NCBI RefSeq assembly: GCF_963676685.1
Contig: NC_092344.1
Coordinates: 49,724,001 to 49,788,000, forward strand
DNA length: 64,000 bases
Source of the DNA: Mytilus edulis
Lineage: Eukaryota
Direction: 5' to 3'
Shown here one piece after another: positions 1 through 61,759 of this stretch. The notes beneath the pieces are model-generated. The model was given only the letters and a program-made list of their open reading frames with translations. It did no database searches and had not been told where the DNA came from. Numbering within the stretch: the stretch's first letter is position 1; the number at the start of each line of letters is the position of its first letter. Made by a program: the position numbers and the translations under genes.

Positions 1-241
1 ATTTTGGTAGAAGGAAAAATTTGAAAGAATGGTTTGCTGGTTCATATATTTTTTTGCAATGTTGAATCCTTTATAGCTTGCAAAACGGTATGAGTTTTAT
101 ACAGTGCTAAATCCATACGGTCCCTGTTATATAATAGATAATTGTCTTATTTGCAAATATACCATAACTCATTAAATCAGTTTATAGATTAAGGATAATG
201 TATATTTGAGAAGATAAAATGTCAGATATATTTTTTTACAG

Positions 242-1125
242 TCTATGCACCCACAGAAAAACATGCATTTGGAGTGGAGAAGGTTTTACTGGTCGAAAGC
301 AAAGTTGAAAGAAACATAAACAGGCGTCGTGGTGGTGGATCCGTTTCTGTACTTGATGTTATTGATGCACAGACGAGCAGGATCAAGAGGAGTTTGGAAC
401 ATCTCATGGAATAGACAGTGAATTTATTACACACGGGTCATCTTCCGGTAGAGGACTGTCTGGGGTTACTGTTGGAGGCAGGACCTCTATATCAGGAACT
501 ATTAGAGGCCTTTCAGCTGTTTTGTCTCGTGCTTTATCTGACGATGACAGTAGCAGTAACTGTCATTATGGGTGTGGAGGCGACAGATTATGTAGTTCAG
601 GACATAAATGTTGACCTGAGGGTGGTAGCAGTTACTGCGTCGACATTTCATCTGGAAATATAATTGGTGCATCTAGATTGGCAGACTCTATTAGAAGGGT
701 AAACACGGGGTCAGAAATGATTAGAAGGTCATTATCTGGCTTGACCAGAGTTTAAAGTAATGATGGTCATTTATCATCTGGCAGCAGAATCGGTACATCT
801 GACTTGGCTAGAAATGTTGATCTCTCTCGCAGTTCTTATTTGGAAACTATAGGCAGTGGCTGTGGAGTTTCTGGTCATTCAGGTTCTGATATTCTTGACG
901 CAATCAGCTCTGGACCAGTTGAAATAGATACAGTTTCTTTCAGACGTAGTGGATCAGGTCGTACTTCTGGTTCAAGACTCGTTTCTCATTCAGTATTAGG
1001 AGGAAAAACTGATTGTAAAAAAAGACTGTTTTAGTGATGGAGATTGTCCAACGAATAAATACTGTGTTTTTGTTAATTGTCACATGATTTGCAGAAGAAG
1101 ACCGTCTAATGGATATACAGGATAA
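242..1125 (+). pseudogene. Copy A of the secreted Ser/Gly-rich WAP-like family: main coding exon, disrupted (signal-peptide exon lies upstream of the window)
   Basis: Acceptor tttttttacag| ends at 241, followed by (V)YAPTEKH as in the paralogs. Homology runs to CPTNKYCVFVNCHMICRRRPSNGYTG with TAA at 1123-1125. Lesions: indels near 369 and 392, in-frame TGA 612-614, TAA 753-755, and an extra A in the A-run near 1017-1023. Confidence 0.9.
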
Positions 1126-3359: not shown

Positions 3360-3690
3360 ATCTCACTAGTATGAGTTTTCATGTGTTTATCATATAGTTT
3401 TTTGTGTTACTAAACTGTTTACCACATACATCATATGTGCGAGGTTTTTATAAACTACGAGTTCTCATGTGTCTGGTGTCCCTAAACTGTAAACCACATA
3501 TATCACGGGTACGGGTGCGAGGTTCTCACCAGTATGAGTTATCATGTGTCTATCATAGAGTCTTGTGTCACTAAACTGTTATCCACAAACAAGGCATGCG
3601 CGATGTTTTCATCAGTATGAGTCCTCATATGTCTATCATAGTGTCTGGTGTCTCTAAACTGTCTACCACATGCATAGCATTGGTAAGATA
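3360..3690 (-). pseudogene. About four out-of-frame or decayed C2H2 fingers at the 3' end of ZNF gene 1
   Basis: Shifted frames read YQCYACGRQFRDTRHYDRHMRTH (canonical spacing), CLVCG*QFSDTRLYDRHMITH, and two further eroded fingers. Confidence 0.75.
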
Positions 3691-5270
3691 TTCACCTGCA
3701 TGAGTAAGTTTCATGTGTAAAAGACAGGTACTTTTGAGGCTAAACTCTTTCCCGCAAACATTACATGTGTAATTTAAAAGTTTATCATTTGTTACAGTAT
3801 TATGAGTACAACTTTGAGTTTTCATGTGTATACGGACCGTGCTCTTGTCCCTAAACCCTTTTCCACATACATCACATGTGTAAGGTTTTTCATCTGTATG
3901 AGTTATCATGTGTATATGAAGGGATCTGATGCTCCTAAAACCTTTGCCACATACATCACATTTGTAAGGTTTTTCACCTGTATGTATTCTAATGTGTGTG
4001 ATTAAATCCTGATTTGACTTAAATCCTTTACCACATACATCACAAATGTAAGGTTTGCGTTGCTCACCAGTATGAGTTCTCATGTGTCTAAGACAAGAAC
4101 TGTTCTTGCCAAACTCCTTACCACACACATCGCATTTGTAAGGTTTATCTCCAGTATGAGTTCTCATGTGTCTAAAATAAGAACTGTTGTTGCCAAACTC
4201 TTTACCACACACATCGCATTTGTAAAGTTTATCACAATTATTAATATTCGTGTGTGTATCAATGTTACATTTGTCGCTTAATCCTTTATCACCTGCTTCT
4301 CTGGTATTCGGTTTTTCATCAGTATGAGTTTTCATGTGTTTATTATGGGAAGTGATGTCACTAAACCCTATTTCACATACATCACATTTGTAAAATTCGT
4401 CACCAGTATGAGTTCGCATGTGTTTGTGGAAATTACTGTTGTTGTCAAACTCTCTACCACATATATCACATGTGTAACGTTTATTATATTTATAACCAGT
4501 ATGAATTGTCATGTGTTTATTGCAGCCACTTTTTCTACCGAAATTTTTACCACAGACATCACATGTGTAAGGTTTTTCACCGGTATGCATTCTTGTGTGT
4601 GCCGTTAAGGAACTGCAGACATTGAACCCTTTACCACATACATCACATATGTAAGGTTTTACACTAGTATGAGTTCTGTTATGTTTCTTATATGATTTAT
4701 AGTAACCAAATCCTTTACCACATAAATCACATGTGTAAGGTTTTTCACGCTTATCACCTGTGTGAATTCGCATGTGTCTGAGCAAGTTACTTTTGTGACC
4801 AAACCCTTGGCCACATAAATTACATGTGTAACGTTTTTCATCAGTATGACTTTTTTTATGTTTCGTACAGTTTCTGGAGTTAGTAAACCCTTGACCACAT
4901 ACACCACACGTGTAACGCTTTTTACCAGTATGAGTTCGTGTGTGTTTTTTTAAGGTTTTATCGAACCTAAAACTTTTACCACACACATCACATTTATAAG
5001 GTTTATCCTGTTTATCAACACTATGAATAATCATGTGTTGAAGGAAGCCTTTTTTGTCACTAAATCCTTTAACACACACATCACATGTGTAAGGTTTATC
5101 AGCAGTATGAGTTCTTGTGTGTATCGTATGAGATCTGAAGTTACTGAAAACTATACCACAGACATCACATGTGTAAGTTTTTTCACCCGTATCCATTCTG
5201 AAGAGTGATTTTTTTTTAAATTGGCGTGTACGTCTTACAGTCTGGTCATGTATCACATAAATGTAGATAT
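3625..5270 (-). CDS. Multi-C2H2 (Kruppel-type) zinc-finger protein, about 15-16 fingers (ZNF gene 1)
   Basis: ORF 3625..5280 has repeated Y-x-C-D-V-C-G-x3-F-x5-x-x2-H-x3-H units and TGEKPY-type linkers. The acceptor atgttttcag| puts the exon start at 5270, so the ORF's first Met is intronic. The first in-exon Met is at 5196. Upstream exons were not identified. Confidence 0.9.
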
Positions 5271-6500
5271 CTGAAAACATTAAAAAATATCATTTTAATT
5301 GCAGACAATTAAACAAATAAACAGAATACACGTGTTTACAAATTTATACTGCAACTGCCTGCGTTTATTTCCTGTAAATATAGTAACATAGCTATATTTT
5401 GTATAATGTCAATTTCATTATGGAATACTTTCTTCACAATCAGGGGTTCATTAATGGATGAGAACAAGTTTGACATTAATGTTACGATTTTAACAGCTGC
5501 CAATGTATTAATTTAAGTTGCAGTATAAAAACATTATTAGGTAAATGTCATACAAGTATGAACTTGTTTGTACTCGGCGCAAAACTGGGGAAGGGCATGA
5601 TAGAACCTCGCCCTTCCACAATTTCTCAGCCTCATACAACAAAGTTTATATTGTCCTGACATTTACCTAATATTGTATATATACATATACATATATGCAA
5701 ACATATTAAAACATAGATAAGACTAGTAGTGATGGGGTCAGTGATGCCGATGTCGCTGATCTGTTTTATCGACAATTTGTATGTATTTTTACTTTTATTG
5801 TACCGCCCTTGCGTTCCATACATTTTTATATAAATAGACACGACATTATCCCAGGTAACACGCATATTTATTTTAAAAGTATTCTTGCTTTAATTATAGC
5901 CTAGGTGTCTATATTGACACCGATATAAATAAAATAATATCTTTAAAGTAACATTATTGACTTACTAATTTACTTGTTGCATGTAGAGATTAATATAATA
6001 AGCAATTTTTCGAACGAGTTCACAACTTTTCCTACTAATGGTATCAAAGGCCGATAACCACAAATTGTTTACCTATGGAACGTCTAAGAAATAAAACAGG
6101 TAACAGTTAATTCTTTGCAGTGTCGGATTTCACTCAAAGTAAATATAATTTATATGTTATAAAAAATGTGGACAATTTCTTGCAAAAATGATAAGTTTTC
6201 CTTTCAAAGCGAGGCATTTACGCACTAAATATGTCGTTGGCAGATTATCATCATGATCATCATGATGCAATGTGGATTATTTTTATAATTGGTAAATAAG
6301 TTCCAGCAAATTTCGAATTTGTTGGCAATTGCACGAAGAAAATTCGAGACGATGGTTTACACCTACTTCATTATTGTGTTCATTTGTGTCTTACACTTTC
6401 GTCACAAAGTTTAATTTCCTTTTTATCATAGTAAAAAAAAAAAAATCATTTATACTGAGACTACTATAACAATTTAGTAGTCTCTGATTTGTACATTTTA

Positions 6501-10570: not shown

Positions 10571-10810
10571 TAAAAATGCTTTTTAATTAGAACGTTTATG
10601 TAATATTTATATGTATATATTTGCGGATATTATATATATACCATGTATACAATTTTGATTAACATTTCTATGAATATTTAACAGTATTATCATAGCTAGA
10701 AAGATACATCTTTCAATTGGACAGAAAATGCAATTTGTAATAATTCATCTTTGAATAGACTGATTTTGCAGTTGTTGGACTTGTTCTCATCATTATTTTC
10801 TTTTGATTAG

Positions 10811-12428
10811 ACTCGAAGCAACTGACAGAAATGAAAGTAAAGACGCCTGGACAGAAACAAATGATATTTCCTACAACGGAACATCAGCTACTTCTATGAT
10901 TGTCTCCATTGATCAGAATTCGGGTCCAATTACGGAAGAAATGAAAAGTAAAGACGTCTGTACAGACACAAATGAAATTTCCTACAACGGAACATCAGCT
11001 ACTTCCATGATTGTCTCCCTTGATCAGACTTCCGGTCCAATAATGGAAGAAATGAAAAGTGAAGACGCCTGTACAGAAACAAATGAAATTTCATACAACG
11101 GAACATCAGCTTTTTCCATGATTGTCTCCCTTGATCGGGCTTCCGGTCCAATTATGGAAGAAATGAAAAGTGAAGACGCCTGTACAGAAACAAATAAAAT
11201 TTCCTACAACGTAACATCAGCTACTTCTATGATTGTCTCCCTTGATCAGACTTCCGGTCCAATAATGGAGGATCGCTTAGTTAGCTTTCATGACAAAGGA
11301 ATTAGTTATATATGTAAAGTATGTGGCACTGAGTGTAGAAACAATGCAGATCTAGAGGAACATATAATAACTCACACTGCTGAAAACCAAGCTTTCAAAT
11401 GTAAAAAGTGTAAAAAAGAGTTTCGCGCATATAGTGTGCTACAGATGCATTTAAAGACACACGCTAGGAGTCATATATGTGAAAAATGTGGTATAGGTTT
11501 TCGTAAGGATGATGACTTAAAGACACACTTGAAAAGTCACTCTGAAGATAAGCCTAATGTATTTACATGTGATGTATGTGATAGAGGGTTTAGTGTGTAT
11601 AGATATCTACAGACCCACATGAGAACACATACTGGAGAAAAACCTTATAAATGTGATGTTTGTGGTAGAAGATTTGCTTGTAGTAATTTCAAACGAACTC
11701 ATGTGAGAACACATACCGGTGAAAAACCTTATGTTTGTGATGTATGTGGGAAAAGTTGTAGCCAGCTTAGTAGTATACAGAGCCACATGAGAACACATAC
11801 AGGTGATAAATCTTTTAAATGTGATGTATGTCGTAAAGTGTTTACTAACAAATGCTGCTTGAGGAGACATACAAAAATACACAGTGGTGAAAGACCTTTC
11901 AAATGTGATGTATGTGGCCATGGGTTTATTCAGAATTGTGACCTACAGAAACATATGAAAATACATACAGGTAACGAAGATAAACTGTATAAATGTGATG
12001 TTTGTGGGAAAGGATTTACTAACAAATGGTACTTGAAGAACCACACAGCAACTCACACTGGTGAAAGACCCTTCATTTGTGATGTGTGTGGTAATGGGTT
12101 TAGAAAAAATTGCGACATAATGAGACACATGAGAATACACACTGGTCACGTGGATAAAAGGTATAAATGTGAAATATGTGATAAAAGGTTTAGTAGGAAA
12201 CAGCACTTAACAACTCACATGAGAACACATACTGGTGATAAACCGTATAAATGTGATGTATGTGGGAGAGGGTTTACTACCAGTTGGTGCTTGAAGAGAC
12301 ACACAACAACACACACTGGTGAAAGACCTGTCAATTGTGATATATGTGGTAAAGGTTTCATTCAGAATTGTGACTTACAAAAACACATGAGAATACATAC
12401 TGGTGATAAACCGTTTAAATGTGATTGA
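10811..12428 (+). CDS. Multi-C2H2 zinc-finger protein, 13 fingers, with N-terminal acidic 37-aa tandem repeats (ZNF gene 2)
   Basis: ORF 10803..12428. Acceptor ttttcttttgattag| ends at 10810. The first in-frame ATG is at 10896 if no upstream exon is coding. There are 13 C-x2-C-x12-H-x3-H units, and the ORF stops inside a 14th (PFKCD*). AATAAA at 12515 and 12726. Confidence 0.9.
10828..11272 (+). repeat. Coding minisatellite, 4 x 111 bp (37 aa)
   Basis: Unit starts atgaaaagt at 10941, 11052 and 11163 (period 111). The first copy at 10831 lacks one A. Confidence 0.95.
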
Positions 12429-14059: not shown

Positions 14060-15243
14060 TCATGGTTTGTATCCTTTAGACGATCTCCTTCTACAAATCA
14101 TGCGACAATTAACAGAAGCACAGTATTTGTTCGTTGGACAATCACCATCACTAAAACAGTTGTTTTTACAATCAGTTTTTGCTCCTGCCATTGACTTAGA
14201 AACGAATCCCGAACCGGAAGAACGTGCTGATCCACTTCGTCTGGACGAAACTCTGTCTATAACATCTAGTCCACTACGTCCAGAAGAGATGGCGTCAAGA
14301 ATATCAGAACTAGCGGGTCAAGCTAGATGATGAACTTCTTATTATTTCTGACCCTGTGTTTCCACTTCTGATAGAGTCTGCCAATCTAAATGTACCAATT
14401 ATACTTCCAGAAGAAATGTCGACGCAGTAATTGCTACAGCCATCGTGTACACATTTATATCCTGAACGACATAATTTGTCTTCTCCACATCCATAATGAC
14501 AGTCACTGTCATCGTCAGAGAAAGCAGGAGACAAACCAGCTAAAGAACCTCAAATGGTTCCCGATACAGAGGTCCTGCCTCCAACAGTAGCCCCAGACAA
14601 TCCTCTACCAGAAGATGACTCGTGTGTTATAAATTTAATGTCTATTCCATGAGAAGTTCCAACTCCTCTTGATCCTGCTCGTCTGTTTGCATCAATAACA
14701 TCAAGTATAGAAGCAGATCCACCACCACGACGCCTGTTTATGTTTCTGGTAACTGTGCTTTCGACCAGTATAGCTTCTTCACACCATTTGTATCTAATGC
14801 ATGTTTTTCTGTGGGTGCATAGACTGTAAAAAAATATATCTGACATTTTATCTTCACAAATATACATGATCTTGAATCTATATACAGATATATGGATTTA
14901 TGGTATTTTTGCCAATAAAACATTTTCTACTATAATACAGGGACCGTACAGATTTAGCACTGTATAAAACGCATACCGTTTTGAAAGCTATGAAGGACTC
15001 CACATTACAAAAATGAAACAACATGAACCAGAAAACCATTTTTTTTCAAGTTTTTCTATTAATATTTACCAAATACTTCGTATTGAATGACATTGTTTCG
15101 TTTGTAAAGCTTGAGTATTTATCTCAACATCGAAAACACATTAAAATATAGCCTATAAATCTACAAAAAGCAAATCGAATATTACCGGCTAGTGTCACTG
15201 TGGCCAATGCCAACGAAAAGAAAAAGGTCTGAAATCTCATCAT
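14060..15243 (-). pseudogene. Copy B of the secreted WAP-like family, disrupted
   Basis: The signal exon 15243..15186 (MMRFQTFFFSLALATVTLA) is intact. The main exon 14823..14060 has a -1 frameshift near 14773 and a TGA at 14552-14550. A net 113-bp deletion relative to copy C creates a TAG at 14312-14310. Confidence 0.9.
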
Positions 15244-25545: not shown

Positions 25546-27183
25546 TTAATTCTGACCAAAAACAGATACCGTTCTATTGCCTTGGGAAAGAATCATTTTT
25601 GAGAAATTACTGGTAAAGCAAATTCCAACATATTGAAAACATTGTTCATCCTTTATTACGATGTCCATAAATGTACCATCTGGCTTCAGTCTACAAATAC
25701 CTTTTTCAAAAACAACAATGTAAACGTAACCATTGTTGTCAACTGCTATCTTCCACATATTATCTGTATTAGGTGTGGAGTATGTATAAACAAATGTACC
25801 ATCGTTTCTTATACATCCCATAACCTTTCTTGCAGTGTAATAGATATTTCCAGATTTATCCAAAGAAATAAACCAAGGTGACTCTTTCTTATTTTTGGTT
25901 TTTACTGACCGAATAAATCTTCCCTCTAGATCCAAAATGTTAATGTTCCCTTTGGTTCCAGCAAATATGTTTTTATGTGTAGCAGCAACTCCTCCTTGAT
26001 TACTTTCCTTTACTGACATTGTTCTAGAAATTTTCTTCTGATCAAAATCAACAAACTGTAAGACTTCTTCTTGGTCAGATGTCAGAACACCTAAGTTTTT
26101 TCCAGGGATTAGAGCAATATCCCAAGGTTGGTGTTTGGTATCAATTTGAAACTTGTAATTATCATTATCGTCATATACCAATATTCTACCACAGTCATTG
26201 TTGTCAACTAAGATGACTTCGTTATTATCATTTATTGTCATTCCGTAAATGCGTGCGTTCTCTATCTCTAAATCTCGTTTATGAACAAAGTTTGGCAAAC
26301 TAAGAGGTTGAACAATTGGCATTTGGGATTGACATTTTTTCTTCTGAACAAATTTTACGGCAGACTGAACTTCGATTAGTTCTATTGACCCGAGAGAGTT
26401 TATAGATTCCAGTGACTTCTCAGGATTTAGACTTATTTTAAATCTGGTTAACTTTTCTGTGATACCAGCTACTCTTTTCTCCAGATCTGTGAGATCTTGT
26501 TTGTACGCGTGAGCAGCAAGAAACGCTTGCTTTTCAGAACCATGTTTGTCTACAAGATCAAATATATCTTTTTTGTCTTTTGTCTTTTTTTCGATATCTT
26601 CTGTTTCATTAATTGTTGTCTTCGATTTCTGTATTATTTCATCTTTTTTTATATCTAGATCATGAAGTAAAGACTTTTCAAGAGCTTCAATGTGCCTAAT
26701 TGCTTCTTCTTTTACTATCTTTACAGCCGTTTTGACTGAATTAGCTTCCTTTACGACATTTTCAATACAACTCTTTTCGTCTTTACCAATTGTATGTGTG
26801 GTTTCTAAAACATGTTCTACAAGTTCCGTGGCATCTAAAAATGACTGGGACTGCTTTGCACCTTTACATGCTATATCCACAGACATCACCTTCTGGCAAG
26901 AGCGATGGTTTTCTGCTAGACATTCTTTGCAAGATAGAACATCATGATCGATACAAAAATACTCAAATGGCATTTTATCGTGTTTCAAACAGGAATGTTC
27001 TACGATAAGTGTGTGAGCCGGCATTTTACTGATATCTATGAGTTCATGATGCCGAAGCATTTTCATGGATCGATGGTTTTCTGTGCATTCTGAACATAGA
27101 GCCTCTTCACAAATTACACACCAATGAATGGAAACGTTATTTCTGTCCCGAATTTTGCATGGTTCACACTTAACTTTCTCCAT
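25546..27183 (-). CDS. TRIM-like protein: B-box1, B-box2, coiled coil and NHL-like beta-propeller; no RING; single coding exon, 545 aa
   Basis: B-box1 CEPC...WCVICEEALCSECTENH...HH and B-box2 CLKH...YFCIDHDVLSCKECLAENH. A heptad-rich middle region is followed by repeats such as PWDIAL, PWFISLDKSGNIYY and WKIAVDNNGYVYIV. The acceptor gttttctgttttag|aaaATG directly precedes the start codon. Confidence 0.9.
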   Translation of the reverse strand: MEKVKCEPCKIRDRNNVSIHWCVICEEALCSECTENHRSMKMLRHHELIDISKMPAHTLIVEHSCLKHDKMPFEYFCIDHDVLSCKECLAENHRSCQKVMSVDIACKGAKQSQSFLDATELVEHVLETTHTIGKDEKSCIENVVKEANSVKTAVKIVKEEAIRHIEALEKSLLHDLDIKKDEIIQKSKTTINETEDIEKKTKDKKDIFDLVDKHGSEKQAFLAAHAYKQDLTDLEKRVAGITEKLTRFKISLNPEKSLESINSLGSIELIEVQSAVKFVQKKKCQSQMPIVQPLSLPNFVHKRDLEIENARIYGMTINDNNEVILVDNNDCGRILVYDDNDNYKFQIDTKHQPWDIALIPGKNLGVLTSDQEEVLQFVDFDQKKISRTMSVKESNQGGVAATHKNIFAGTKGNINILDLEGRFIRSVKTKNKKESPWFISLDKSGNIYYTARKVMGCIRNDGTFVYTYSTPNTDNMWKIAVDNNGYVYIVVFEKGICRLKPDGTFMDIVIKDEQCFQYVGICFTSNFSKMILSQGNRTVSVFGQN

Positions 27184-27271
27184 TTTCTAAAACAGAAAAC
27201 AAAATGAAAGAAAGTGCATGTTATTATTGTCTTGTAATAGTTATCAAAGGTACCAGGATTATAATTTAGTA

Positions 27272-27313: not shown

Positions 27314-27588
27314 CTCATATCGAAATATTTTAAAGCCAAACAAGTACAAATAATTGTTATGGATCAAAATATGATTTTTTTAACTCGCTTCCGACACCCC
27401 GAATGTGAGTTTAAAACCACAAATGAAAGCTGCTACGAAAAATGTATCATGTTTGGAGCTGGTTCGCTGCAATGCAGAGCAATGATGATCAGTAAATAGC
27501 TAATTTTGTATCACTTGATTTACAAACATTTCAAGCTTCTTAATCGAATTTGATTACAAATATCTTCGAAGGCAAAAGATCATTTCTA

Positions 27589-27620
<32 letters not shown>

Positions 27621-27629
27621 TCTTACATT

Positions 27630-28259
27630 ACGTTTCAATAGATTTAAAGAGCAATGGTATATTGATTTAATGTCAAACGAGCGTAGTAAACTACGTACTT
27701 ACAGACTGTTCAAAAGTGAATTTGGTGAAGAAAATTATTTATTAAAAATTATACCTGGTAGATATAGGAGTGCCTATGCCAAATTTAGAAGTGGTACTGC
27801 TCCTTTGAAAATTGAGACTGGAAGGTATGAAGGTATTTTAGTTGAAAATAGAACTTGTTATAACAGTATTTGTAATGAAAATCTTTTAATTGAAGATGAA
27901 AAACATGTATTAATGAATTGTCCTGTGTATGAAGATTCGCGTTGTTATTTGTTTTATCAAGCATCTCTAATTAATGTAAATTTTATGCAATTGTCTGATG
28001 ACGATAAATTTATATTTTTATTAACAGATGAAAATATGTACTTTTATACTGCCAAAATCTGCAATGACATTTTATTGAAAAGAAAATGTATTTTATATAG
28101 CTAGTTTTAGTGTAAATACTGTATATACATTTTAGATAGTCTCTCATAACTCTTTTTAGAGTGGCTCTTGTATGTTTTATGATGTTGTTTTATCAACTGT
28201 TTGTATGTTTTATATAATGAAGAGATGAGACTTAAATAAAATATTGTCTTGTCTTGTCT
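27630..28259 (+). mobile_element. 5'-truncated non-LTR retrotransposon (L2/CR1-group ORF2 C-terminus plus 3' tail)
   Basis: KLRTYRLFK...AKFRSGTAPLKIETGRY...RTC...C...IEDEKHVLMNCPVY is a typical LINE C-terminal region. The tail has AATAAA followed by (gtctt)n. Confidence 0.85.
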
Positions 28260-36606: not shown

Positions 36607-38081
36607 TCATGGTTTGTATCCTTTAGATGGTCTCCTTCTACAAATCATGTGACAATTAACAGAAGCACAGTATTTGTTCGTTGGACAATCGCCATCACTA
36701 AAACAGTCGTTTTTACAATCAGTTTTTGCTCCTACCATTGACTGAGAAACGAATCCTGAACCGGAAGAACGTGCTGATCCGCTTCGTCTGGATGAAACTG
36801 TATCTATAACATCAAGTCCACTACGTCTAGAAGAGATTGCGTCAAGAATATCAGAACCTGTATGACCGGACACTCCACGGCTACTACCTAAAGTGTCCAA
36901 ATGAGAACTTCTAGCCAGACCGGATGAACCAATTCTTCTGCCAGAGGATAAATGACCATCATTACTTGAAACTCGGGTCAACCTAGATGATGAACTTCTA
37001 ATCATTTCTGAGATTGCGTTACCTCTGTTTATAGAGTCTGACAATCGTGATGTACCAATTATACTTCCAGAAGAAATGTCGACGCAGTAACTGCTACAAC
37101 CATCATGTACACATTTTTGTCCTGAACGACATACTTTGTCTACTCCACATCCATAATGACAGTTACTATCATCGTCAGATAAAGTAAGTGACAAACCCAC
37201 TGATGAGTCTCTTATGATTTCAGATGAAGAGGTCCTGCCACCAAAAGAGCCCCCAGATAAACCTCTACTGGCTGATGACCCGCGTGTTATAAATTCATTG
37301 CCTATTCCATGTGATGTTCCAACAGCTCTTGATCCTGCTCGTCTATTTGCATCAATAACGTCTAAAACAGAAAGTGATTCGCCACCACGACGCCCGGTTA
37401 TGTCTCTTCCTAGTGTGCTTTCGACTACTAAAGTCGTCTTACCTCCACGTGTAACTGATGCATGTTTTCCAGTTGGTGCATATACTGTGAAATAGATATT
37501 TGACATTATTGCACAAATATACACGAGACAGTTTTAATCTATATATTAATATAAGGACATCTGGTACTTTTGCTTATAAGACATCAATCCAATTTGAATC
37601 AAATGACAGGAATGTTTACAACTGTAGGAACCTAACGATTTCAGCACTGTAGAAATCTCATACTGTTTAGCAAGATAAAAATGTAAATAAGTTGAGCATG
37701 ATCTGCTTGCCTTTTTGGCGCACCTGTGTGATTGTGTTGCTCAGTTTTTAATGTTTTTATGAAGGGTTTTATGTACTATTATTTGTCCTCATTACACAAT
37801 ATTAAAACATATGAATTAGTAAACCATTCATTTAAATTTTTTCTTTAATAATTTACTAAAATAAATACAATTTGGAATGATAAATTCATATGTACTGAAA
37901 TTATCTTCATTTAAGATTTTTGTTTGTTGAGGTATTTGGATTTTTTTTTGTATCAAAACATCGAAAATCCTTTTGTAGAATAACCTATGAATTTTGAGAA
38001 GGCAAATCGAATATTTCTCTTACCGGCTAGTGTTACTGTTGCCAATGCCAACAGAAATAAAACGGTCTGGAATCTCATCAT
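36607..38081 (-). CDS. Copy C: secreted Ser/Gly/Arg-rich protein with two 6-Cys WAP-like modules, 311 aa; join(38081..38024, 37484..36607)
   Basis: A 58-nt exon encodes the signal peptide MMRFQTVLFLLALATVTLA. A phase-1 intron (gtaag...tttcacag) joins it in frame to YAPTGKH..., open to TGA. AATAAA near 36547-36552. Confidence 0.92.
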
Positions 38082-38766
38082 CTCTAACAATTCTGAAATT
38101 GATAAATTATGATTTTCAAAGTCATGGAAAATTATAATCAACACGTGGCTCATACAAAACAGTGAATTTACTACTGAAGACATTAAAGACAGTAACATGT
38201 TAGTGACAAACCTCGGTTAATTTACGAAATTAACAAACGAGGAAAATTCATTTAAGCAAAATATATAAATGTCTACCTATGTTTTAGAAACGGATAATTC
38301 TTTTACATTGTTTAATAAATAAAAAAAATATATGTATTGAATTTTTTTTTAAACACCATCTTCTATATTCCAAAGAATTATTTCAATTGGATTTACATTT
38401 CCTATAGATCTTGTGTTATTATATGTAAAAAAAAATTCACTAAAATAAACAAAAAAGTTTGTCTTTTATCTTTCAGTGATTTAAAACAATTAATAAATGT
38501 TGAACAATGTAAACTTTCTATATTCTCTTCGTTTTCCAATGTTTCATTCTTACAAGGGAACACCTACTGATTTTTTTTGCTGTAATCTTTAGCTACTTTC
38601 GAAAATTCAAAAAGTAAAGAATCATTAGTTCCCAATAAACTTTATTAATATTTTTTCTAATTATTTAATTATTTAATAACTTATTTTCAGTTGATCTCTC
38701 TCACTTTTGCATTATTGTTGTTTACATTTATTAATAGTTAATATATATTATTACATAATTTCTTAC

Positions 38767-38898
38767 CTGTGTTTGAAGTAATTGCAATAATGTCTAGTGA
38801 ATAATGTTTTACTGCTTCAGAATCGTTCTTTTATACCCTTTTTCATTTTTTTTTCTAAAAGTTGACATACACACAAGGAAATGTTTAACTGAACCGCA
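38767..38898 (-). promoter_or_regulatory. Non-coding exon 1 and TATA promoter of copy C
   Basis: Donor acag|gtaaga (exon ends 38767). TATAAAA at 38835-38829. AGGAAATGT at 38876-38884 and AACCGCA at 38892-38898. Same order as in copies D and E. Confidence 0.75.
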
Positions 38899-40392
38899 CA
38901 TGATGCATTCGTTAATTATAGATGAAACTTAAAATGTCACCATGTCATTTTTATATGGAACTGTGAAATATGTATATCTAACAAATGCACTAAGGGTTCA
39001 TAACACATTGTGTTTCCTTCTATAGCTACAACAGACATATTTGTTATGACATCATAATAAATGTTTGTATTATAAATCATTGTTTGACCGATTATTAATG
39101 TTTTCATATAAACACATTATATATTTGGTAGTAGCCAGAGACTTGTACTTTTTGAAAACAAATAAACTAACGCCCTTTATTTCCTTATAGACAAAATACA
39201 TTCTTTTCTTAGAATTGTTAAGAAACCGCTGCTTTGTAATTTATTTACCTCACAATATAAAACTCATCTAAGTTTGAAGGATTTCAATAAAATTTGTAAG
39301 ACACGCATCTTGGCTGTTTCAGATTCACTAGACGTATTCGAATCAATCAAAACAGTAAAAAGGGAAGATCATGATCAATTTTGAAATTATGAAACTAAAG
39401 AGGATGAAAAACCAAAAACTCGAACGTAGTTGCGTCAAATCTATTTAATGCCATCTTGATAGCTTTATTATTTTAATCAGTTTTACCTTTTTTTAGTGAA
39501 ATGTATATTTTTCAGACCAGAATCTTTCATCTAAACAAAAACATTTGCCTTCTGATAATAGGTTACTTTCGAAGATAAACCGTTTACAAGCAAAAAAAAG
39601 CTAACGGTTTACCTTCGAAAGATACCAAAAAGGACATAAGTCGAAAATATAACGACAATCCCCTGATAAATATAAATATCAACACTTATTAGAAGACGGA
39701 CAGAACAGTTTACAAAACACAGATCACCAAAGACTAGGCAACAATAATCAAACAAAAAACTGGTAATCTTGTCACTGATTCTCCCGCGCTTCAGCTATTG
39801 TGAACAATAAGATGTTAGATCTTTTCTTACTTAAAATAAAACCTGTTTTACCCTGACATTCATTTAGAGCTTTATATAATGTGCGTGTACCTGTCAATTA
39901 TCGACGACTTTATGTTACTTTATATATGTCTTTAGGTTTTTTGTGTCGTTTGGTTGTTATTCATTCACATGCAACCCGCGTCTCCTTTTATTTAAAAATT
40001 TCTCAATGCGTGTTTTTTTTTCTTTCTCAACGTTATAATTCAAATGATGCTGTTGCTGTTTCCAGTTTTACCAAGCTAATACTTTTAATTCGATACGCAA
40101 GACGTGCGTTTTATCTGCAAGCTTTGTACTAAAATTAAAGACAAGATTAGATACAAAGTGTACAAACTTAAGTATAAGATAATTACACTTCAAAATCAAT
40201 TAATTACAGTGAAACCTATTTTAACCGAACTTATTAGGGACTTCAGATTTTGTTCGGTTATGGCCGAAGTTCGGTTTCATCAAGTTCACAATGCAAATAA
40301 TTTGATATCACAGTGCTATACTTTTTGGACCTTTTGGATTATAGCTCTTCATCTTTTATATAAGCTTTGGATTTCAAATATTTTGGCCACGA

Positions 40393-40436
40393 GCATCACT
40401 GAAGAGACATGTATTGTCGAAATGCGCATCTGGTGC
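40393..40436 (+). ncRNA. Minimal type I hammerhead ribozyme
   Basis: gcatca-CTGAAGA-gaca-tgtat-tgtc-GAAA-t-gcgc-a-TC^tggtgc. Predicted cleavage after 40430. Confidence 0.9.
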
Positions 40437-40742
40437 AAGAAAATTGGTACCGTTAATTTTATTACTACCACTGGGTCGATGCCTCTGCTGGTGGACTATT
40501 AGTCCCCGAGGGTATCACCAGCCCAGTAGCCAGTACTTCGGTACTGGCATGAAAATACGGATTTTTTGTGTTATTAAAATTTGCTGTTACAAAATATTAG
40601 AAATTATTATAAATTAAGGAATGTATCTCCCTCAGGCAAAGCTCTGATTCCTTTCACGGATTTGGCTATACTTTTTGGACCTTTTGGATTATAGCTCTTC
40701 ATCTTTTATATAAGCTTTGGATTTCAAATATTTTGGCCACGA

Positions 40743-40786
40743 GCATCACTGAAGAGACGTGTATTGTCGAAATGCGCATCTGGTGC
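40743..40786 (+). ncRNA. Minimal type I hammerhead ribozyme
   Basis: Same motif, with stem II gacg/tgtc (G-U wobble). Predicted cleavage after 40780. Confidence 0.9.
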
Positions 40787-41786
40787 AAGAAAATTGGTAC
40801 CGTTAATTTTATTACGAACATGTTTGTTTTATACAGGTTTTCGGTTTATAAAGGATTTGGGTTAGGCAGGTTTCACTGTAGTATGACAATGATTAATTTC
40901 AAATAACAAAAACAATATATCATTGCACTGTTTTGTTTGCGTATTTTTATTTTTGTGTGATTTAGTTTTCATCCTACAACCATACAAAAAGCAAAAAGAT
41001 TGGTATTTTAATCTTTAGATTAAAATGAACTAACAAAAACGTTTAGACCAGTAACACCAGTTTGGCATTAGAAAATATAACTATTCCGAGGATGAAACAA
41101 ACAATTATGTTTGTCACTTACACGCACTACTTTCAATGTTTTGCTTTTTCTAACAAAACTTAAATCAAACAGCAAATTTAACCTTTGTCATTGTTGAATA
41201 CAGATATTAGAAAATTGGTTGGTTTACTAAACAAAAACGATAAATATCATAAATTTCATATGATAAAAAATGGAGATTTTTTTTGTTTATCACTCACATT
41301 TTTAAGTAAGGGTTCGTGTTTTAAATATTCTCTGTTATATTTTTTGTACTCTTGTTTGTTTTGGTATTTCCTTTAAAAATGTCCTGTACCAAGTCAGGAA
41401 TATGGCCATTGTTATATTATGGTTCGTTTTTGTGTGTGTTACAATTTAACGTTGCGTCGTTTGTTTTCTCTTATTTTTGAGTGTAAATTGACATTGCGAT
41501 AAGACGTGTCACGGTACTTGTCTATCCCAAATTCATGTATTTGGTTTTGATGTTATATTTGTTATTCTCGTGGGATTTTGTCGGATGCTTGGTCCGTTTC
41601 TGTGTGTGTTAGTTACATTGTAGTGTTGTGTCGTTGTTCTCCTCTTATATTTATGCGTTTCCATCAGTTTTAGTTTATTACCCCGATTTAGTTTTTTGTC
41701 CATGGATTTATGAGTTTGAACAGCGGTAAACTACTGTTGCCTTTATTTGGTCTTTTTCATTTTTTGTCATGGATTTGTCAGTTTAA

Positions 41787-48769: not shown

Positions 48770-49560
48770 CTGCCTCATACAGGTTTTTACCCATATTATT
48801 CAATTCTTTAATATTTCTTACAGATAGTAATTAAACTAATTTGAAGGTAGATAGGTTTCTATAATAATATATCTTAATATGTTTACTTCTGACATTTACA
48901 TATTTATTACACTCTAATATAAAATGATATTCGTCTTCGATTACTTTCTTATTACACATATTACAAACACGCTCATTTCTGGAAATATTAAAGTATCTTC
49001 AAGTTTCTACATTAAGTGAATGTGAATTGATTCTATATTTAGTTACATATGACTGGTATAAACTGTTCAATAAGCGATTCAAATAAAATTGCAAAGTATG
49101 TCCATCATGTTTATATTGATTCAAATTACATTTTGAAGTATTTTCAAAAAATGACAAACCGTCAGCTATATAATTATCAAAAAAAAAATTTTTTAACTTC
49201 ATGCAAAAATAGTTGATTATTTCCAACACTTTGTGCTAACCATATATCATTAAATCCATACCTGTTTAGTATGTCTCTTATCGTACAACTCCAGTTGAGT
49301 TTATCATTCGTTTTAACAAAACTAGATTCGTACATATCTTCATAAACACTATTCAATATACAATTATTAGATTCTAATAACTTCAACCAGTAACGTACCA
49401 TTCTTACATATTTATTTACATACAATGGTAAACGCCTAAGTTCAAAATACACCATATGGTCTACATTCGTTTTTCTCACTTTCAAAATTATTTTTAAATA
49501 ATACAAATGAAGCGTTTCTATATCAGCTCCCTTATGGAAACTCCATAAAGAATTCATGAA
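48770..49560 (-). mobile_element. Decayed L2/CR1-group LINE ORF2 3' fragment
   Basis: ETLHLYYLKIILKVRK..MVYFELRRLPL..VRYWLKLL, KYRINSHSLNVET and RVCNMCNKKVIEDEYHFILEC, with frameshifts and stops. Confidence 0.8.
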
Positions 49561-50228
49561 TATTATCTCAAACTTTTTTTTTATTCAACCTTGATTGCAC
49601 TTTTTTCAAGTCTCTTATCTCTTTTAAAAATAAGTAAATTTTTAAAATCAAATAATATTTTTCCAGATATATACCAACACAATACAATGATTGATATGTA
49701 CAGTATACGTAATCATTCATTATTTTGTATCACCATTAGGGCAATATTAAGGTTAACATAAAATCTTATAGTGACATTTGTCACGTGTTTTTGTGGTGTT
49801 GTGTCTCATTAACGTTTATTCGCACCAAATCTTCTTCTAGCTATAGGTGGCATATTTATTAAAGCATGAGCCAAGAGAGACAATTACCATATCTTAACTA
49901 TAATTAATTGGGTTCTGTATTTTTTTCAGTCTGAAATATTCTTCATTTTTAAATGACAAAGTTCAATGTAATAAGATATAACTTGAAATTTACTTTGTTT
50001 ATTTATGTTTGTTGTCCTTTTCGCATATTTATATCTGTTTGATAGATGTAATACATCTTATGATTATGATTGCTTCGATGTATAAACTGTTTAATGTTTT
50101 TGTATGTATGAATGATGCTAAAAATATTTACAACAAGAATAACTGTATTTAACATTTTATTTTATTTATCTATAAAAAAAAATCAGTTTGCGTAAAAAAT
50201 ATGGATTTCTTCAAATTTCTAATTATGT

Positions 50229-52019
50229 TCATCCTGAGTATCCTTTGGATGGTTTTCTTCGGCAAATCCTGTGACATTTAACAGTGGTACAGTATTTGCT
50301 TGGTGCACAATCTGTATCAGTATGACATAGTTTTCTGCAATTACTGAGGTCTCCTACTACTGACTGAGATACGATCCTTGAACCAGATGATCCAACTGAT
50401 CCTCCTCGTCTAGAAGAAATTGTGTCCAATGCATCCATGCCACTACGTCTAGATGTAATTGTGTCCAATGCATTAATGCCACTTCGTCTAGCTGAGATAG
50501 TGTCAAGAATATCAGAACCTGTATGACCAGACAATGTACGACTGCTACCAATAGTTTCCAAATGAGCATTGCTAGATAGATCCAAACGTCCTGTCAAAGA
50601 CTGACCAGAACCAATTAGGCTACCAGATGCTATTTGTACGCAATAGCTGTTGCATCCTTCGTGGACACATTTCTGTCCTAACCCACATAGTTTATTGTCT
50701 CCACATCCATAATTGCATTTCAAACCATCAATGCTTGACAGTCTTGATAAGTCAGATGACGAACCTCTAATAATTTCTGAAACTTTATTTCCCCTTCTTA
50801 TAGACCCCGATAATCCAGATTCACCAATGACACTCCCAGATGAAACTTGGACACAATAACTGTCACATCCATCGCGTACACATTTATGTCCTAGGTTACA
50901 TAATTTATCTACTCCACACTCATAATGACAGTTTCTGTTTATACCATCATTGCTTGCTATACCAGCAGAATTCTGAAATGAAGAGCTTCTTATAATTTCA
51001 GAGACAGCTGAACTTCTTCTGTCAGATCCTGCTCGTCTATTTGCATCCATTACATCCAATACAGAAACTGAGTCTCCAAGAGGACCTCCAATGTCTCTAC
51101 CAACTCCATTGTCAAGCTGTAAAACCTTGTTCACTCCATGTAGACCTAATTTCTTTTCTGTAGGTGTATAGGCTGTAAAGAAATATATGAGGTTTGTAAA
51201 ACTTATATCAAACAAATACTGTACACCAACTTATTTTCGCGGATACTTTATTTCGCGTTTATCACCAGCTAGTCAATTTCGCGGCGATTTAATTTCGCGA
51301 TTTCTTAAATTTACTTGATGTGGTTTGATAAGGAAATATCTAAGTTATACATATTCGCGACGATTTAATTTCGCGTTCGTTTTCTTCTCGCGAAAGTCGC
51401 GAAAATAAATCGCTCGCGAAATTAAGTTGGTTTACAGTATTTTAAAATTCTTTGAAAGAATACAGAAAAATCATCATATAGTGCCTTTTCTTATTATAAA
51501 TCTAATTCCTAATAATATATTTGCAGATCCATAAGTGATAAATTTAAATATCATTGATTACACATGTTTATAAATTAACTGCAAAACTTTCATTTATTTA
51601 AAAACACTTCGGACATTTGGGATCCTCAGTTTTCTTTAAATTCAATCTTGATTCGGCATTATAACATGTATAACATTTCTATTCGAGCATTCCTGATGAG
51701 TCTTTTGTAGACGAAGCACGGGTATTTATTATCGAATTATAAGCGTGGTATCTTTGTTGGGTAACTAGAACTTGATCTTAACTATGTCAGAAAACTTTGT
51801 TTATAAAAAGCTTATCAAAGGTGCCAGACTTATAATTTTGTACACCAGACGCATGTTTCTTCCTTCATCATAAGTGTTATCAGAGATTATGGTATCACAA
51901 CAGTTTGAAAGCCAAATAAAAAATAATAATCTTGAGAAAGCGAATATAAGTTAATGCTTACCAGCCACTGACATTATGGTCAATAACATTGACAATGACA
52001 TAGTTTCAAATCTCATCAT
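50229..52019 (-). CDS. Copy D: secreted Ser/Gly/Arg-rich protein with three 6-Cys WAP-like modules, 333 aa; join(52019..51962, 51172..50229)
   Basis: A 58-nt exon encodes MMRFETMSLSMLLTIMSVA. A phase-1 intron (gtaagc...tttacag) joins it in frame to (A)YTPTEKK..., open to TGA. Confidence 0.92.
51219..51437. mobile_element. TA-target MITE (Tc1/mariner-like) in intron 2 of copy D
   Basis: TIR ctgtacaccaacttattttcgcg / cgcgaaattaagttggtttacag with TA on both sides and internal tttcgcg repeats. Absent from copy E. Confidence 0.85.
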
Positions 52020-60228: not shown

Positions 60229-61759
60229 TCATCCTGAGTATCCTTTAGATGGCCTTCTTCTGCAAAGCCTGTGACATTTAACAGTGGTACAGTATTTGCT
60301 TGGTGCACAATCTGAATCAGTATGACATAGTTTCCTACATTCACTGTCGTCTCCTACTACAGACTGAGAAACGATCCTTGAACCAGATGATCCAACTGAT
60401 CCTACTCGTCTAGAAGAAATTGTGTCCAATGCATCCATGCCACTACGTCTAGATGTAATTGTGTCCAATGCATTAATGCCACTTCGTCTAGCTGAGATAG
60501 CGTCAAGAATATCAGAACCTGTGTGACCAGAAATTGAACCACTGCTACCAATAGTTTCCAAATGACCATTGTTAGATAGACCCACACGTCCGGTTAAAGA
60601 CTGACCTGAACCAATTAGGCTACTAGATGATAATTGAACGCAATAGCTGTTGCATCCTTCGAGGATACATTTATGTCCTGATGCACATAGTTTATTTTCT
60701 CCACATCCATAACTGCATTTTGAACCATCAATGCTTGACAGTCTTGAAATTCCAGATGATGAACCTCTAATAATTTCTGAAACTGTATTTCTATTTCCAC
60801 TTCTTATAGACCCCGACAATCCAGATTCACCAATGACACTTCCAGATGAAACTTGGACACAGTAACTGTCACATCCATCGCGTACACATTTCTGTCCTAG
60901 GTTACATAATTTATCTACTCCACACTCGTAATGACAGTTTTTGTTTATACCATTATTGCTTGCTATACCAGCAGAATTCTGAAATGAAGAGCTTCTTATA
61001 ATTTCAGAGACAGCTGAACTTCTTCTGTCAGATCCTGCTCGTCTATTTGCAACAATTACATCCAATCCAGTAAGTGACTCTCCACGACGAACTCCAATGT
61101 CTCTACCAACTCCATTGTCAAGCTGTAAAACCTTGTTCACTCCATGTAGACCTAAATTCTTTTCTGTAGGTGTATAGGCTGTAAAAAATGTACGAGCTTT
61201 GTGAAAGAAGTAATAGCTGTTTTAAAATCGTTTTAATGCGTGCCTGTTTAATGCGAATATAGCAAAACTATCATCTTTATATTGTGTTATTTTCATTATA
61301 ATGTTTATACAGGTTTATCAATGAGAAGTTAGGTTGACATCGATATTGTCATATTCATAAATTAACTGCCAAAATTACATTAAAAAACTTCGAACATCTG
61401 TTGACCTCAAATTCAAAACTTGATTTTAGCATTTAGATTTGAGCTTTTCGGCTGGGTCTTTTTTAGACGATATGTGGGTCTTGTGTACAGACTTAAAAGT
61501 GTGGGATCTTTGTCGAATCGTATCTTAACTACGTCAAACATATTTGTGTAAAAACGAAGCTCATCAAAGGTACCAAACTTAACATAATTGTGTACGCCAG
61601 ATGTCGTTTACAAAATATGCATCCATAATGCTGGTATCAAAACTGTTTGAAAGCATAATAAAAGAAAATGATAGAAAAGGCGAAAATAACAAAATGCTTA
61701 CCAGCTACTGACATTATAGTCAACAACATTGACAATGACATAGTTTCAAATCTCATCAT
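60229..61759 (-). CDS. Copy E: tandem paralog of D with three WAP-like modules, 335 aa; join(61759..61702, 61178..60229)
   Basis: A 58-nt exon encodes MMRFETMSLSMLLTIMSVA. A phase-1 intron joins it in frame through (A)YTPTEKNLGLHG into ORF 60229..61140. Confidence 0.92.

What the first reader, a model, noticed from the sequence alone, without database searches (positions are those of the whole stretch)
36620..37165. Three-disulfide WAP-like module lacking exactly the C1-C6 pair
Seen: all eight modules in C, D and E have the spacing C-x3-C-x5-C-x5-C-x4-C-x3-C (e.g. CKNDCFSDGDCPTNKYCASVNCHMIC, CHYGCGVDKVCRSGQKCVHDGCSSYC). Known: the WAP four-disulfide core ends C3-x5-C4-x5-C5C6-x3-C7-x3-C8, with bonds 1-6, 2-7, 3-5 and 4-8. 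Inference: these modules equal WAP cysteines 2,3,4,5,7,8, so both partners of one bond are missing. The C-terminal module also keeps the WAP-like C-x-x-D-x-D-C signature. This would be a minimised WAP variant that standard profiles might miss.
Basis: partly seen in the sequence, partly recalled or inferred. Interest (0 to 1): 0.75.

Follow-up and report, generated by a model that had tools for sequence, protein, structure and literature searches.

The report
Six-cysteine WAP beads in mussel proteins
A mussel gene in a large tandem family encodes a signal-peptide-bearing, serine/glycine/arginine-rich protein carrying small six-cysteine modules that match the WAP domain minus one cysteine pair; they are predicted to keep the WAP fold and likely serve as structural beads rather than protease inhibitors, and the same trimmed pattern also occurs in mammal, bird and reptile WAP proteins.

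Summary
Observation confirmed. The spacing C-x3-C-x5-C-x5-C-x4-C-x3-C occurs 10 times in the window and 0 times in 30 shuffles. The two modules lie in a spliced Mytilus gene with a signal peptide, one of 19 tandem paralogues (28 related loci in about 565 kb).

The WAP reading is supported. The modules align without gaps to omwaprin cysteines 2,3,4,5,7,8. Predicted models match omwaprin, SLPI and elafin best, with low scores (Z 4.2-2.5). The paralogue at one end of the array keeps a full eight-cysteine WAP. Disulfide pairing is inferred, not shown.

Two corrections. Profiles only partly miss the module: Pfam WAP passes for 2 of 10, and UniRef already calls many relatives WAP proteins. The variant is not mussel-specific: 49 of 89 profile hits carry the exact spacing, including mammal, bird and reptile 'WFDC3-like' proteins.

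With cysteine 1 gone and only three residues between cysteines 2 and 3, elafin-type inhibition is unlikely. A structural role in a secreted matrix is my best guess; the tissue is unknown. No paper found describes this variant or family; mouse Wfdc21 may be a precedent (recalled, unverified). The scan noted a stripped-down WAP before, in an arthropod (unchecked).

The parts
36607..37484 (-). Main coding exon of gene D: Ser/Gly/Arg-rich linkers, one internal and one terminal six-Cys module, short basic tail; 311-aa protein with the signal exon
   Evidence: 97% identical to a Mytilus edulis protein; covered by contigs of 3 of 3 contig runs
36640..36717 (-). Terminal six-Cys module (WAP C2,3,4,5,7,8) with the C-x-x-D-x-D-C signature
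   Evidence: Pfam WAP 22.1 bits against cut-off 20.8; model matches omwaprin, SLPI and elafin
37084..37161 (-). Internal six-Cys module, with Gly just before the fifth Cys as in WAP domains
   Evidence: Pfam WAP 17.9 bits, below cut-off
37485..38023 (-). Phase-1 GT-AG intron
   Evidence: joint 37484/38024, 539 bases skipped, in 3 of 3 contig runs
38024..38094 (-). Exon with the start codon (38081) and a hydrophobic signal-peptide-like segment
   Evidence: signal peptide judged by eye, no predictor run
38767..38800 (-). Probable 3' end of an upstream non-coding exon (limits approximate)
   Evidence: loose ends at 38094 in 3 of 3 contig runs resemble this stretch, which ends at a donor-like site; compared by eye
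50229..52019 (-). Intact paralogue C (333 aa): signal exon 51962-52019, main exon 50229-51172, modules at 50853-50930, 50640-50717 and 50262-50339
60229..61759 (-). Intact paralogue E (335 aa): signal exon 61702-61759, main exon 60229-61178, modules at 60859-60936, 60640-60717 and 60262-60339
14060..15243 (-). Broken paralogue (main exon split over frames, with stops); modules at 14424-14501 and 14093-14170 still exact
241..1122 (+). Broken paralogue on the other strand (stops and frame changes, no exact module left)

Best explanation
The modules are six-cysteine segments matching WAP cysteines 2,3,4,5,7,8, predicted to keep the WAP fold with three disulfides, and they likely act as compact structural or binding beads on a secreted, basic, probably disordered Ser/Gly/Arg-rich matrix or coating protein rather than as protease inhibitors. 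Shown: spacing, gene structure, splicing in RNA-like runs, tandem array, a full WAP in one paralogue, overall purifying selection. Predicted: hairpin fold in WAP register. Inferred: bonds a-e, b-d, c-f (WAP 2-7, 3-5, 4-8); loss of the N-terminal arm that C1-C6 pins down, and with it the inhibitory contact loop; bulk secretion from a gland or epithelium (mantle, foot or mucus), where the linkers do the cohesive work and the beads resist proteolysis or bind partners. WAP derivation alone I put at about 0.9; the confidence below is for the whole statement including the matrix role.
For: Gap-free alignment to elafin C3-C8 and to six omwaprin cysteines. Both AlphaFold2 models (mean pLDDT 77.5 and 77.7, built from six-Cys rows only) give strands 22-27 and 30-35, with the fifth Cys at the turn. 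Among 48,161 chains the top 4 of 11 rows for the terminal model are WAP proteins (omwaprin Z 4.2, rmsd 2.0, 35 aligned; SLPI 4.1; elafin 3.9; nawaprin 3.0), and the top 3 of 5 for the internal model (Z 2.6-2.5). Gly just before the fifth Cys: 54 of 54 internal modules in the family and 103 of 126 six-Cys modules among profile hits. For comparison, 141 of 156 CC-type WAP cores have it there and 0 of 38 four-Cys DPY-like motifs do. Copy 19 starts with a full WAP (36.7 bits), and 27 of 49 six-Cys-bearing hits also hold a CC-type WAP core. Against inhibition: a review ties antiprotease activity to spacings of 6 and 8 between C1, C2 and C3 and says gaps of 3, 4 or 7 may leave too little room (PMC11408880, passages); the contact region lies around C2 (PMC9680087, section 6). 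For a matrix role: the 15 exons analysed have pI 8.7-10.2 and linkers 44-51% S+G+R, and linker dN/dS (0.51) is no higher than at non-Cys module sites (0.61). Module number varies from 1 to 3 between near-identical paralogues. WAP domains are enriched among foot and mantle-rim transcripts of a mytilid (PMC5549309) and occur in bivalve shells (PMC5854119); these papers do not name this family.
Against: All structure scores are weak: Foldseek E 0.14 at best and VIA Z under 5, which the tool says may reflect only a common arrangement. No disulfide distances were available, and AlphaFold2 may echo known WAP structures. By sequence the best solved-structure match to the module profile is the Dumpy DPY module (E 0.00029, four middle cysteines only), ahead of omwaprin (E 0.15). 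For the internal model a starfish peptide ranks first by E-value (1.2) and omwaprin second (E 2.0, highest TM-score 0.59). The profile hits were picked with a profile that favours the Gly, so 103 of 126 is biased, and terminal modules have N, D, K or S there (55 of 55). The full WAP of the cluster has one extra residue after CC and is not especially similar to the modules (mean score 0.6), so they are not recent copies of it. Nothing places the protein in a tissue or matrix: no proteomic record was found and disorder was not computed.
Confidence: 0.5

Rival explanations
1. Defence-peptide precursors: the chain is cut at Arg-Arg sites and releases small disulfide-locked or cationic peptides that act on microbes, like omwaprin or crustins.
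For: Arg-Arg pairs exceed the mean of shuffled linkers in 15 of 15 exons (3-7 observed against 1.4-2.7; no significance test), often in a repeated hydrophobic-D-x-I-x-x-R-R motif; the last 36 residues carry net +2 to +7. The best structural match, omwaprin, is antibacterial. Tandem expansion with broken copies is common in immune genes (own knowledge).
Against: The modules themselves are near neutral (-1 to +3). Overall dN/dS is below 1 (0.39-0.61), with no sign of diversifying selection, though no site test was run. [quoted passage not shown] Most of the chain is conserved linker.
Confidence: 0.2
2. Shell-matrix proteins whose modules bind calcium carbonate faces, as perlwapin does.
For: WAP domains occur in shells with calcite and perlwapin binds calcite (PMC5854119; PMC3896809). 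WAP domains occur in novel genes raised during M. edulis shell repair (PMC8194122). The terminal module keeps the Asp pair.
Against: The proteins are basic, and internal modules lack the Asp signature (0 of 54). None of the passages read links this family to shell.
Confidence: 0.15
3. Protease inhibitors that protect byssus or shell matrix, as the WAP label usually implies.
For: Foot-enriched WAP genes of Perna viridis, two without SwissProt match, were filed as inhibitors (PMC7971044). A horse peptide related to WDNM1 inhibits microbial proteases (PMC3179947), so activity outside the elafin pattern exists.
Against: No C1, only three residues between C2 and C3, and low-complexity linker where the contact loop would begin (rule). 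The Perna assignment rests on the domain name; those sequences were not seen.
Confidence: 0.1
4. The module is not WAP-derived: it is a DPY-like two-disulfide hairpin with an extra outer bond (a-f, b-d, c-e).
For: DPY is the top solved-structure sequence hit and a weak Pfam hit for 3 of 10 modules.
Against: Turn-Gly register, predicted hairpin register, fold-search ranking and co-occurrence with full WAP domains in one chain.
Confidence: 0.07

Closest known systems
WAP/WFDC four-disulfide core (Pfam PF00095), HE4/omwaprin type with three residues between C2 and C3
   Same: Spacing of C2,3,4,5,7,8, the D-x-D-C signature (terminal module), the Gly before C7 (internal modules), predicted hairpin fold
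   Different: C1, the N-terminal arm and C6 are absent; C6 is replaced by V, I, A or T; three possible disulfides, not four
[quoted passage not shown]
   Same: Exact six-Cys spacing, often in the same chain as full WAP domains
   Different: Short linkers, no Ser/Gly/Arg-rich regions; shared or separate origin undecided
Mouse Wdnm1-like / Wfdc21
   Same: Published as a small secreted, distant member of the WAP family that raises active MMP-2 rather than inhibiting a protease (PMC4184305, passages). That it has this six-Cys spacing is my recall and was not verified here.
   Different: A single tiny module; mammalian; its sequence was not retrieved (one search found nothing)
Perlwapin and lustrin A (mollusc shell WAP proteins)
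   Same: Secreted mollusc proteins with WAP domains; lustrin A also has a Gly/Ser-rich region (recalled)
   Different: They carry WAP domains of the canonical kind; no sequence comparison with this family was run
Dumpy DPY module (PDB 1oig, PF21164)
   Same: C-x5-C-x5-C-x4-C spacing of the four middle cysteines
   Different: Covers four of the six cysteines; different turn register; not among the listed fold-search rows

Membership tests
WAP/WFDC four-disulfide core | Eight conserved cysteines forming four disulfides | tested here: not met
   Six cysteines; no Cys within 15 residues upstream in 109 of 109 modules; C6 place never Cys
WAP/WFDC four-disulfide core | Spacing of C2,3,4,5,7,8 as in WAP domains | tested here: met
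   Gap-free alignment to omwaprin over six Cys and to elafin C3-C8
WAP/WFDC four-disulfide core | Pfam PF00095 above the gathering score | tested here: inconclusive
   2 of 10 window modules pass (22.1 against 20.8), 7 score 12.9-18.3, 1 has no hit; whole gene D exon passes, C and E do not
WAP/WFDC four-disulfide core | WAP fold (central hairpin, short turn, pinned loop) | tested here: inconclusive
   Predicted models rank WAP structures first, but at Z 4.2-2.5 and Foldseek E above 0.1
WAP/WFDC four-disulfide core | Connectivity 2-7, 3-5, 4-8 (pairing recalled from established knowledge) | not testable with these tools
   No coordinates or bond distances were returned; inferred from superposition register only
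Elafin/SLPI-type protease inhibitors | C1-x6-C2-x8-C3 spacing that forms the contact loop | tested here: not met
   No C1 and C2-x3-C3 in all modules; rule from PMC11408880
Elafin/SLPI-type protease inhibitors | Inhibition of serine proteases | not testable with these tools
   Needs an assay
Dumpy DPY module | Four cysteines C-x5-C-x5-C-x4-C | tested here: met
   E 0.00029 over 20 positions
Dumpy DPY module | Pfam PF21164 above the gathering score | tested here: not met
   14.5-15.3 bits against 27 for 3 of 10 modules, no hit for 7
Wdnm1-like / WFDC21 | Sequence kinship with named Wfdc21 proteins | tested here: inconclusive
   The search of short proteins with a horse hit found no candidate; none of 30 looked-up hits bore that name

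The most novel reading that the evidence does not exclude
The six-cysteine form is a distinct, unnamed three-disulfide WAP subfamily that arose once before molluscs and vertebrates split, has a non-inhibitory function of its own (possibly shared with mammalian Wfdc21), and was expanded in mussels into a 28-locus array of secreted bead-on-string matrix proteins. A tree with all six-Cys modules held together is not rejected (p-AU 0.695), but 30 columns cannot prove it, and repeated independent loss of the C1-C6 pair fits as well.
Probability: 0.25. Interest if true: 0.6.

Novelty: new variant of a known kind. Interest (0 to 1): 0.35.

Why it matters
It shows that the C1-C6 pair of the 'four-disulfide core' can be dropped cleanly, and that such domains hide under WAP labels in both mussels and amniotes. 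Genes so labelled are routinely filed as protease inhibitors in mussel foot and shell studies, which is doubtful for this form. A 26-residue three-disulfide module is easy to synthesise, so fold and function can be tested directly. The mussel array is also a candidate set of undescribed secreted matrix proteins. It is a domain variant with untested function, not a new kind of system.

Tried and rejected
Tissue of expression: not resolved. No holder of the gene was on record as RNA (14 holders guessed to be RNA). The one raw-read RNA run gave 0 reads in about 6% of its reads, which is no test. Four contig runs (two holders, two non-holders) laid on a foot-protein-3 locus covered neither exon; with no positive control this is not evidence for or against the foot.

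Wfdc21 as precedent: the original paper was not held under three ids, PMC4184305 has no readable supplement and its alignment figure is not held, and the short-protein search found nothing.

Literature: 10 searches. No listing named a six-cysteine WAP class or this family, and two short peptide motifs of the family gave 0 papers. Subscription journals are mostly missing, and the supplements of PMC8194122 could not be read and may list these genes.

Origin of the module: nearest-neighbour scores are mixed (bivalve six-Cys nearest to amniote six-Cys in 39 of 52; amniote six-Cys nearest to amniote eight-Cys in 18 of 26). The tree used a subsample of 55 of 114 modules and left 34 of 52 inner branches open.

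ESM Atlas: best hits are WAP clusters at 0.77-0.78, a lead only. DPY, EGF and antistasin were not top fold rows; absence from a list excludes nothing, and knottins appear lower down. The 111-aa plus-strand frame at 37160-37495 is read as the antisense shadow of the exon (not tested). No complex prediction was run, as no binding is claimed. No signal-peptide or disorder predictor was available.

Full report
OBSERVATION. The two quoted modules lie on the minus strand in one open frame, at 37084-37161 and 36640-36717. The spacing C-x3-C-x5-C-x5-C-x4-C-x3-C occurs 10 times in the window, all on the minus strand, and 0 times in each of 30 shuffles.

THE GENE. A short exon at 38024-38094 carries the start codon and a hydrophobic leader. 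A GT-AG intron joins it to one large exon, 37484-36607, giving a 311-residue protein. Contigs of 3 of 3 RNA-like runs skip exactly these 539 bases and do not cover the intron; the fourth run, raw reads, gave nothing. These runs are guessed, not recorded, to be RNA. The closest protein is from Mytilus edulis (97%). Of the 63 homologues found, 61 are named from five Mytilus species and 2 are unnamed.

THE ARRAY. The 264 kb around and including the window hold 19 paralogues and 37 exact modules. Sixteen have an open main exon (15, plus copy 19) and three are broken. Each intact copy has a terminal module with a short basic tail and 0-2 internal modules; copy 19 has four. A further 400 kb to the left hold 9 related loci with six-Cys modules, two of them beginning with a CC-type WAP; 100 kb to the right hold none. 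That makes 28 loci in about 565 kb. Pooled pairwise dN/dS over 15 exons is 0.39 for modules, 0.61 without their cysteines and 0.51 for linkers (pairs are not independent). The exons are basic (pI 8.7-10.2) and the linkers are 44-51% Ser+Gly+Arg.

IS IT WAP? Pfam WAP passes its cut-off for 2 of 10 window modules, is the top or joint-top weak hit for 7 and is absent for 1; the match always starts at profile position 10 or 11, so the N-terminal arm is what is missing. In 109 of 109 family modules there is no cysteine within 15 residues upstream and the C6 place is V, I, A or T. Copy 19 begins with a complete eight-cysteine WAP (36.7 bits over positions 1-41) in the place where the other paralogues have plain linker, and the same layout recurs in M. 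californianus, M. trossulus and an unnamed protein. That domain has one more residue after CC than the modules and is not especially similar to them, so the loss is old. AlphaFold2 models of both module types, built from six-Cys rows only, reach mean pLDDT 77.5 and 77.7 and place strands at 22-27 and 30-35. The terminal model matches omwaprin (Z 4.2, rmsd 2.0, 35 aligned), SLPI (4.1), elafin (3.9) and nawaprin (3.0) ahead of all other rows; its constant offset of 10 to omwaprin puts all six cysteines on omwaprin's C2,3,4,5,7,8. Foldseek agrees, at E 0.14-0.3. The internal model is weaker: WAP proteins are the top 3 of 5 rows at Z 2.6-2.5, and Foldseek ranks a starfish peptide first by E-value and omwaprin second. 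These scores are low and no bond distances were returned, so the pairing is inferred.

THE MAIN RIVAL FOLD. The Dumpy DPY module shares the four middle cysteines and is the best solved-structure hit by sequence (E 0.00029). The turn register separates them. Gly stands just before the fifth cysteine in 54 of 54 internal modules of the family and in 141 of 156 CC-type WAP cores; in 38 four-Cys DPY-like motifs from seven hits I chose by eye it is never there and lies one place earlier in 25. The terminal modules have no Gly at this place, so for them the case rests on the signature, Pfam and the model.

HOW WIDESPREAD. A module profile run over 1.84 billion representatives gave 89 hits: 49 have the exact six-Cys spacing, 54 a CC-type WAP core, 27 both and 13 neither. 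A few of the 49 look like unrelated four-Cys repeats, and 13 of the 126 modules have an unassigned cysteine upstream. Of 30 hits looked up, 19 carry a species: 18 mammals, birds or reptiles, mostly annotated as WAP or WFDC3-like, and one M. edulis. So the variant is not special to mussels. One origin for all six-Cys modules is not rejected (p-AU 0.695), but the tree is mostly unresolved and nearest-neighbour scores point both ways.

HOW IT MOST LIKELY WORKS. The antiprotease activity of elafin and SLPI goes with spacings of 6 and 8 between C1, C2 and C3, and gaps of 3, 4 or 7 may leave too little room for an inhibitory site (PMC11408880). The contact region lies around C2 (PMC9680087). These modules lack C1 and have a gap of 3, so elafin-type inhibition is unlikely (inference). 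Most of each protein is conserved, basic, low-complexity linker, and module number changes freely between paralogues. I therefore read them as secreted bead-on-string matrix or coating proteins whose three-disulfide modules are stable structural or binding knobs (0.5). Rivals: defence-peptide precursors cut at Arg-Arg (0.2; Arg-Arg exceeds the shuffled mean in 15 of 15 exons), mineral binders like perlwapin (0.15), inhibitors (0.1), non-WAP fold (0.07). No result here fixes the tissue.

WHAT IS KNOWN. The module fails the eight-cysteine test, so I file it as a variant that folds like WAP, not as a four-disulfide core. UniRef already calls many homologues 'WAP domain-containing protein'. Mouse Wdnm1-like/Wfdc21 is published as a distant WAP member that raises active MMP-2 (PMC4184305); I recall that it has this six-cysteine spacing but could not verify it. 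Ten paper searches found no description of the variant or of the mussel family (see Tried and rejected). Papers seen: passages only of PMC3896809, PMC6641155, PMC8194122, PMC11408880, PMC4184305, PMC3374290, PMC3179947 and PMC5854119; passages plus supplement rows of PMC7971044 and PMC5549309; passages plus section 6 of PMC9680087; Wu and Smas 2008 only as cited in PMC4184305; all others as search listings. The WAP bond pattern 1-6, 2-7, 3-5, 4-8 is recalled. An earlier scan note (e1-9127184) mentions a stripped-down WAP domain in an arthropod family; I did not check it.

VERDICT. Real feature; the WAP-minus-C1/C6 reading is very likely right (about 0.9); the variant is widespread and partly caught by existing annotation; function untested. 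New variant of a known kind, interest 0.35.

Noticed in passing
G000:C1:49296-49413 kb (L062, L067, L070-L073): Seven more tandem genes with one exact six-Cys module near the start, a four-Cys segment, Arg/Ser-rich repeats and a variant terminal module; five share the Y-S-P-K exon start seen in copy 19.
   Followed up: partly
G000:C1:49458101-49460086 (L038) and 49479136-49480344 (L040): Two genes that begin with a CC-type WAP: one followed by 11 six-Cys modules, one with a Ser/Thr/Pro/Leu-rich mucin-like linker.
   Followed up: partly
window 36700-37400 (-) and all paralogues: A short linker motif, hydrophobic-D-x-I-x-x-R-R, repeats 1-4 times per protein; it could be a processing site or an assembly motif.
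   Followed up: partly
window 3628-5289 (-) and 10764-12425 (+): Two 554-codon frames with C2H2 zinc-finger arrays interspersed in the cluster (named by eye).
   Followed up: no
window 25549-27186 (-): 546-codon frame with B-box-like Cys/His motifs, a coiled-coil-like stretch and a propeller-like end, resembling bivalve TRIM proteins (named by eye).
   Followed up: no
window 27544-28101 (+) and 49180-49584 (-): Fragments resembling the ends of non-LTR retrotransposon proteins (by eye).
   Followed up: no
window 40320-40460 and 40670-40810: A direct repeat of about 140 bases inside what looks like a common mussel interspersed repeat (by eye).
   Followed up: no
L085:705-747 (G000:C5): A roughly 40-base stretch inside a foot-protein-3 intron is hit by many unrelated contigs in all four runs, probably a short interspersed repeat.
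   Followed up: no
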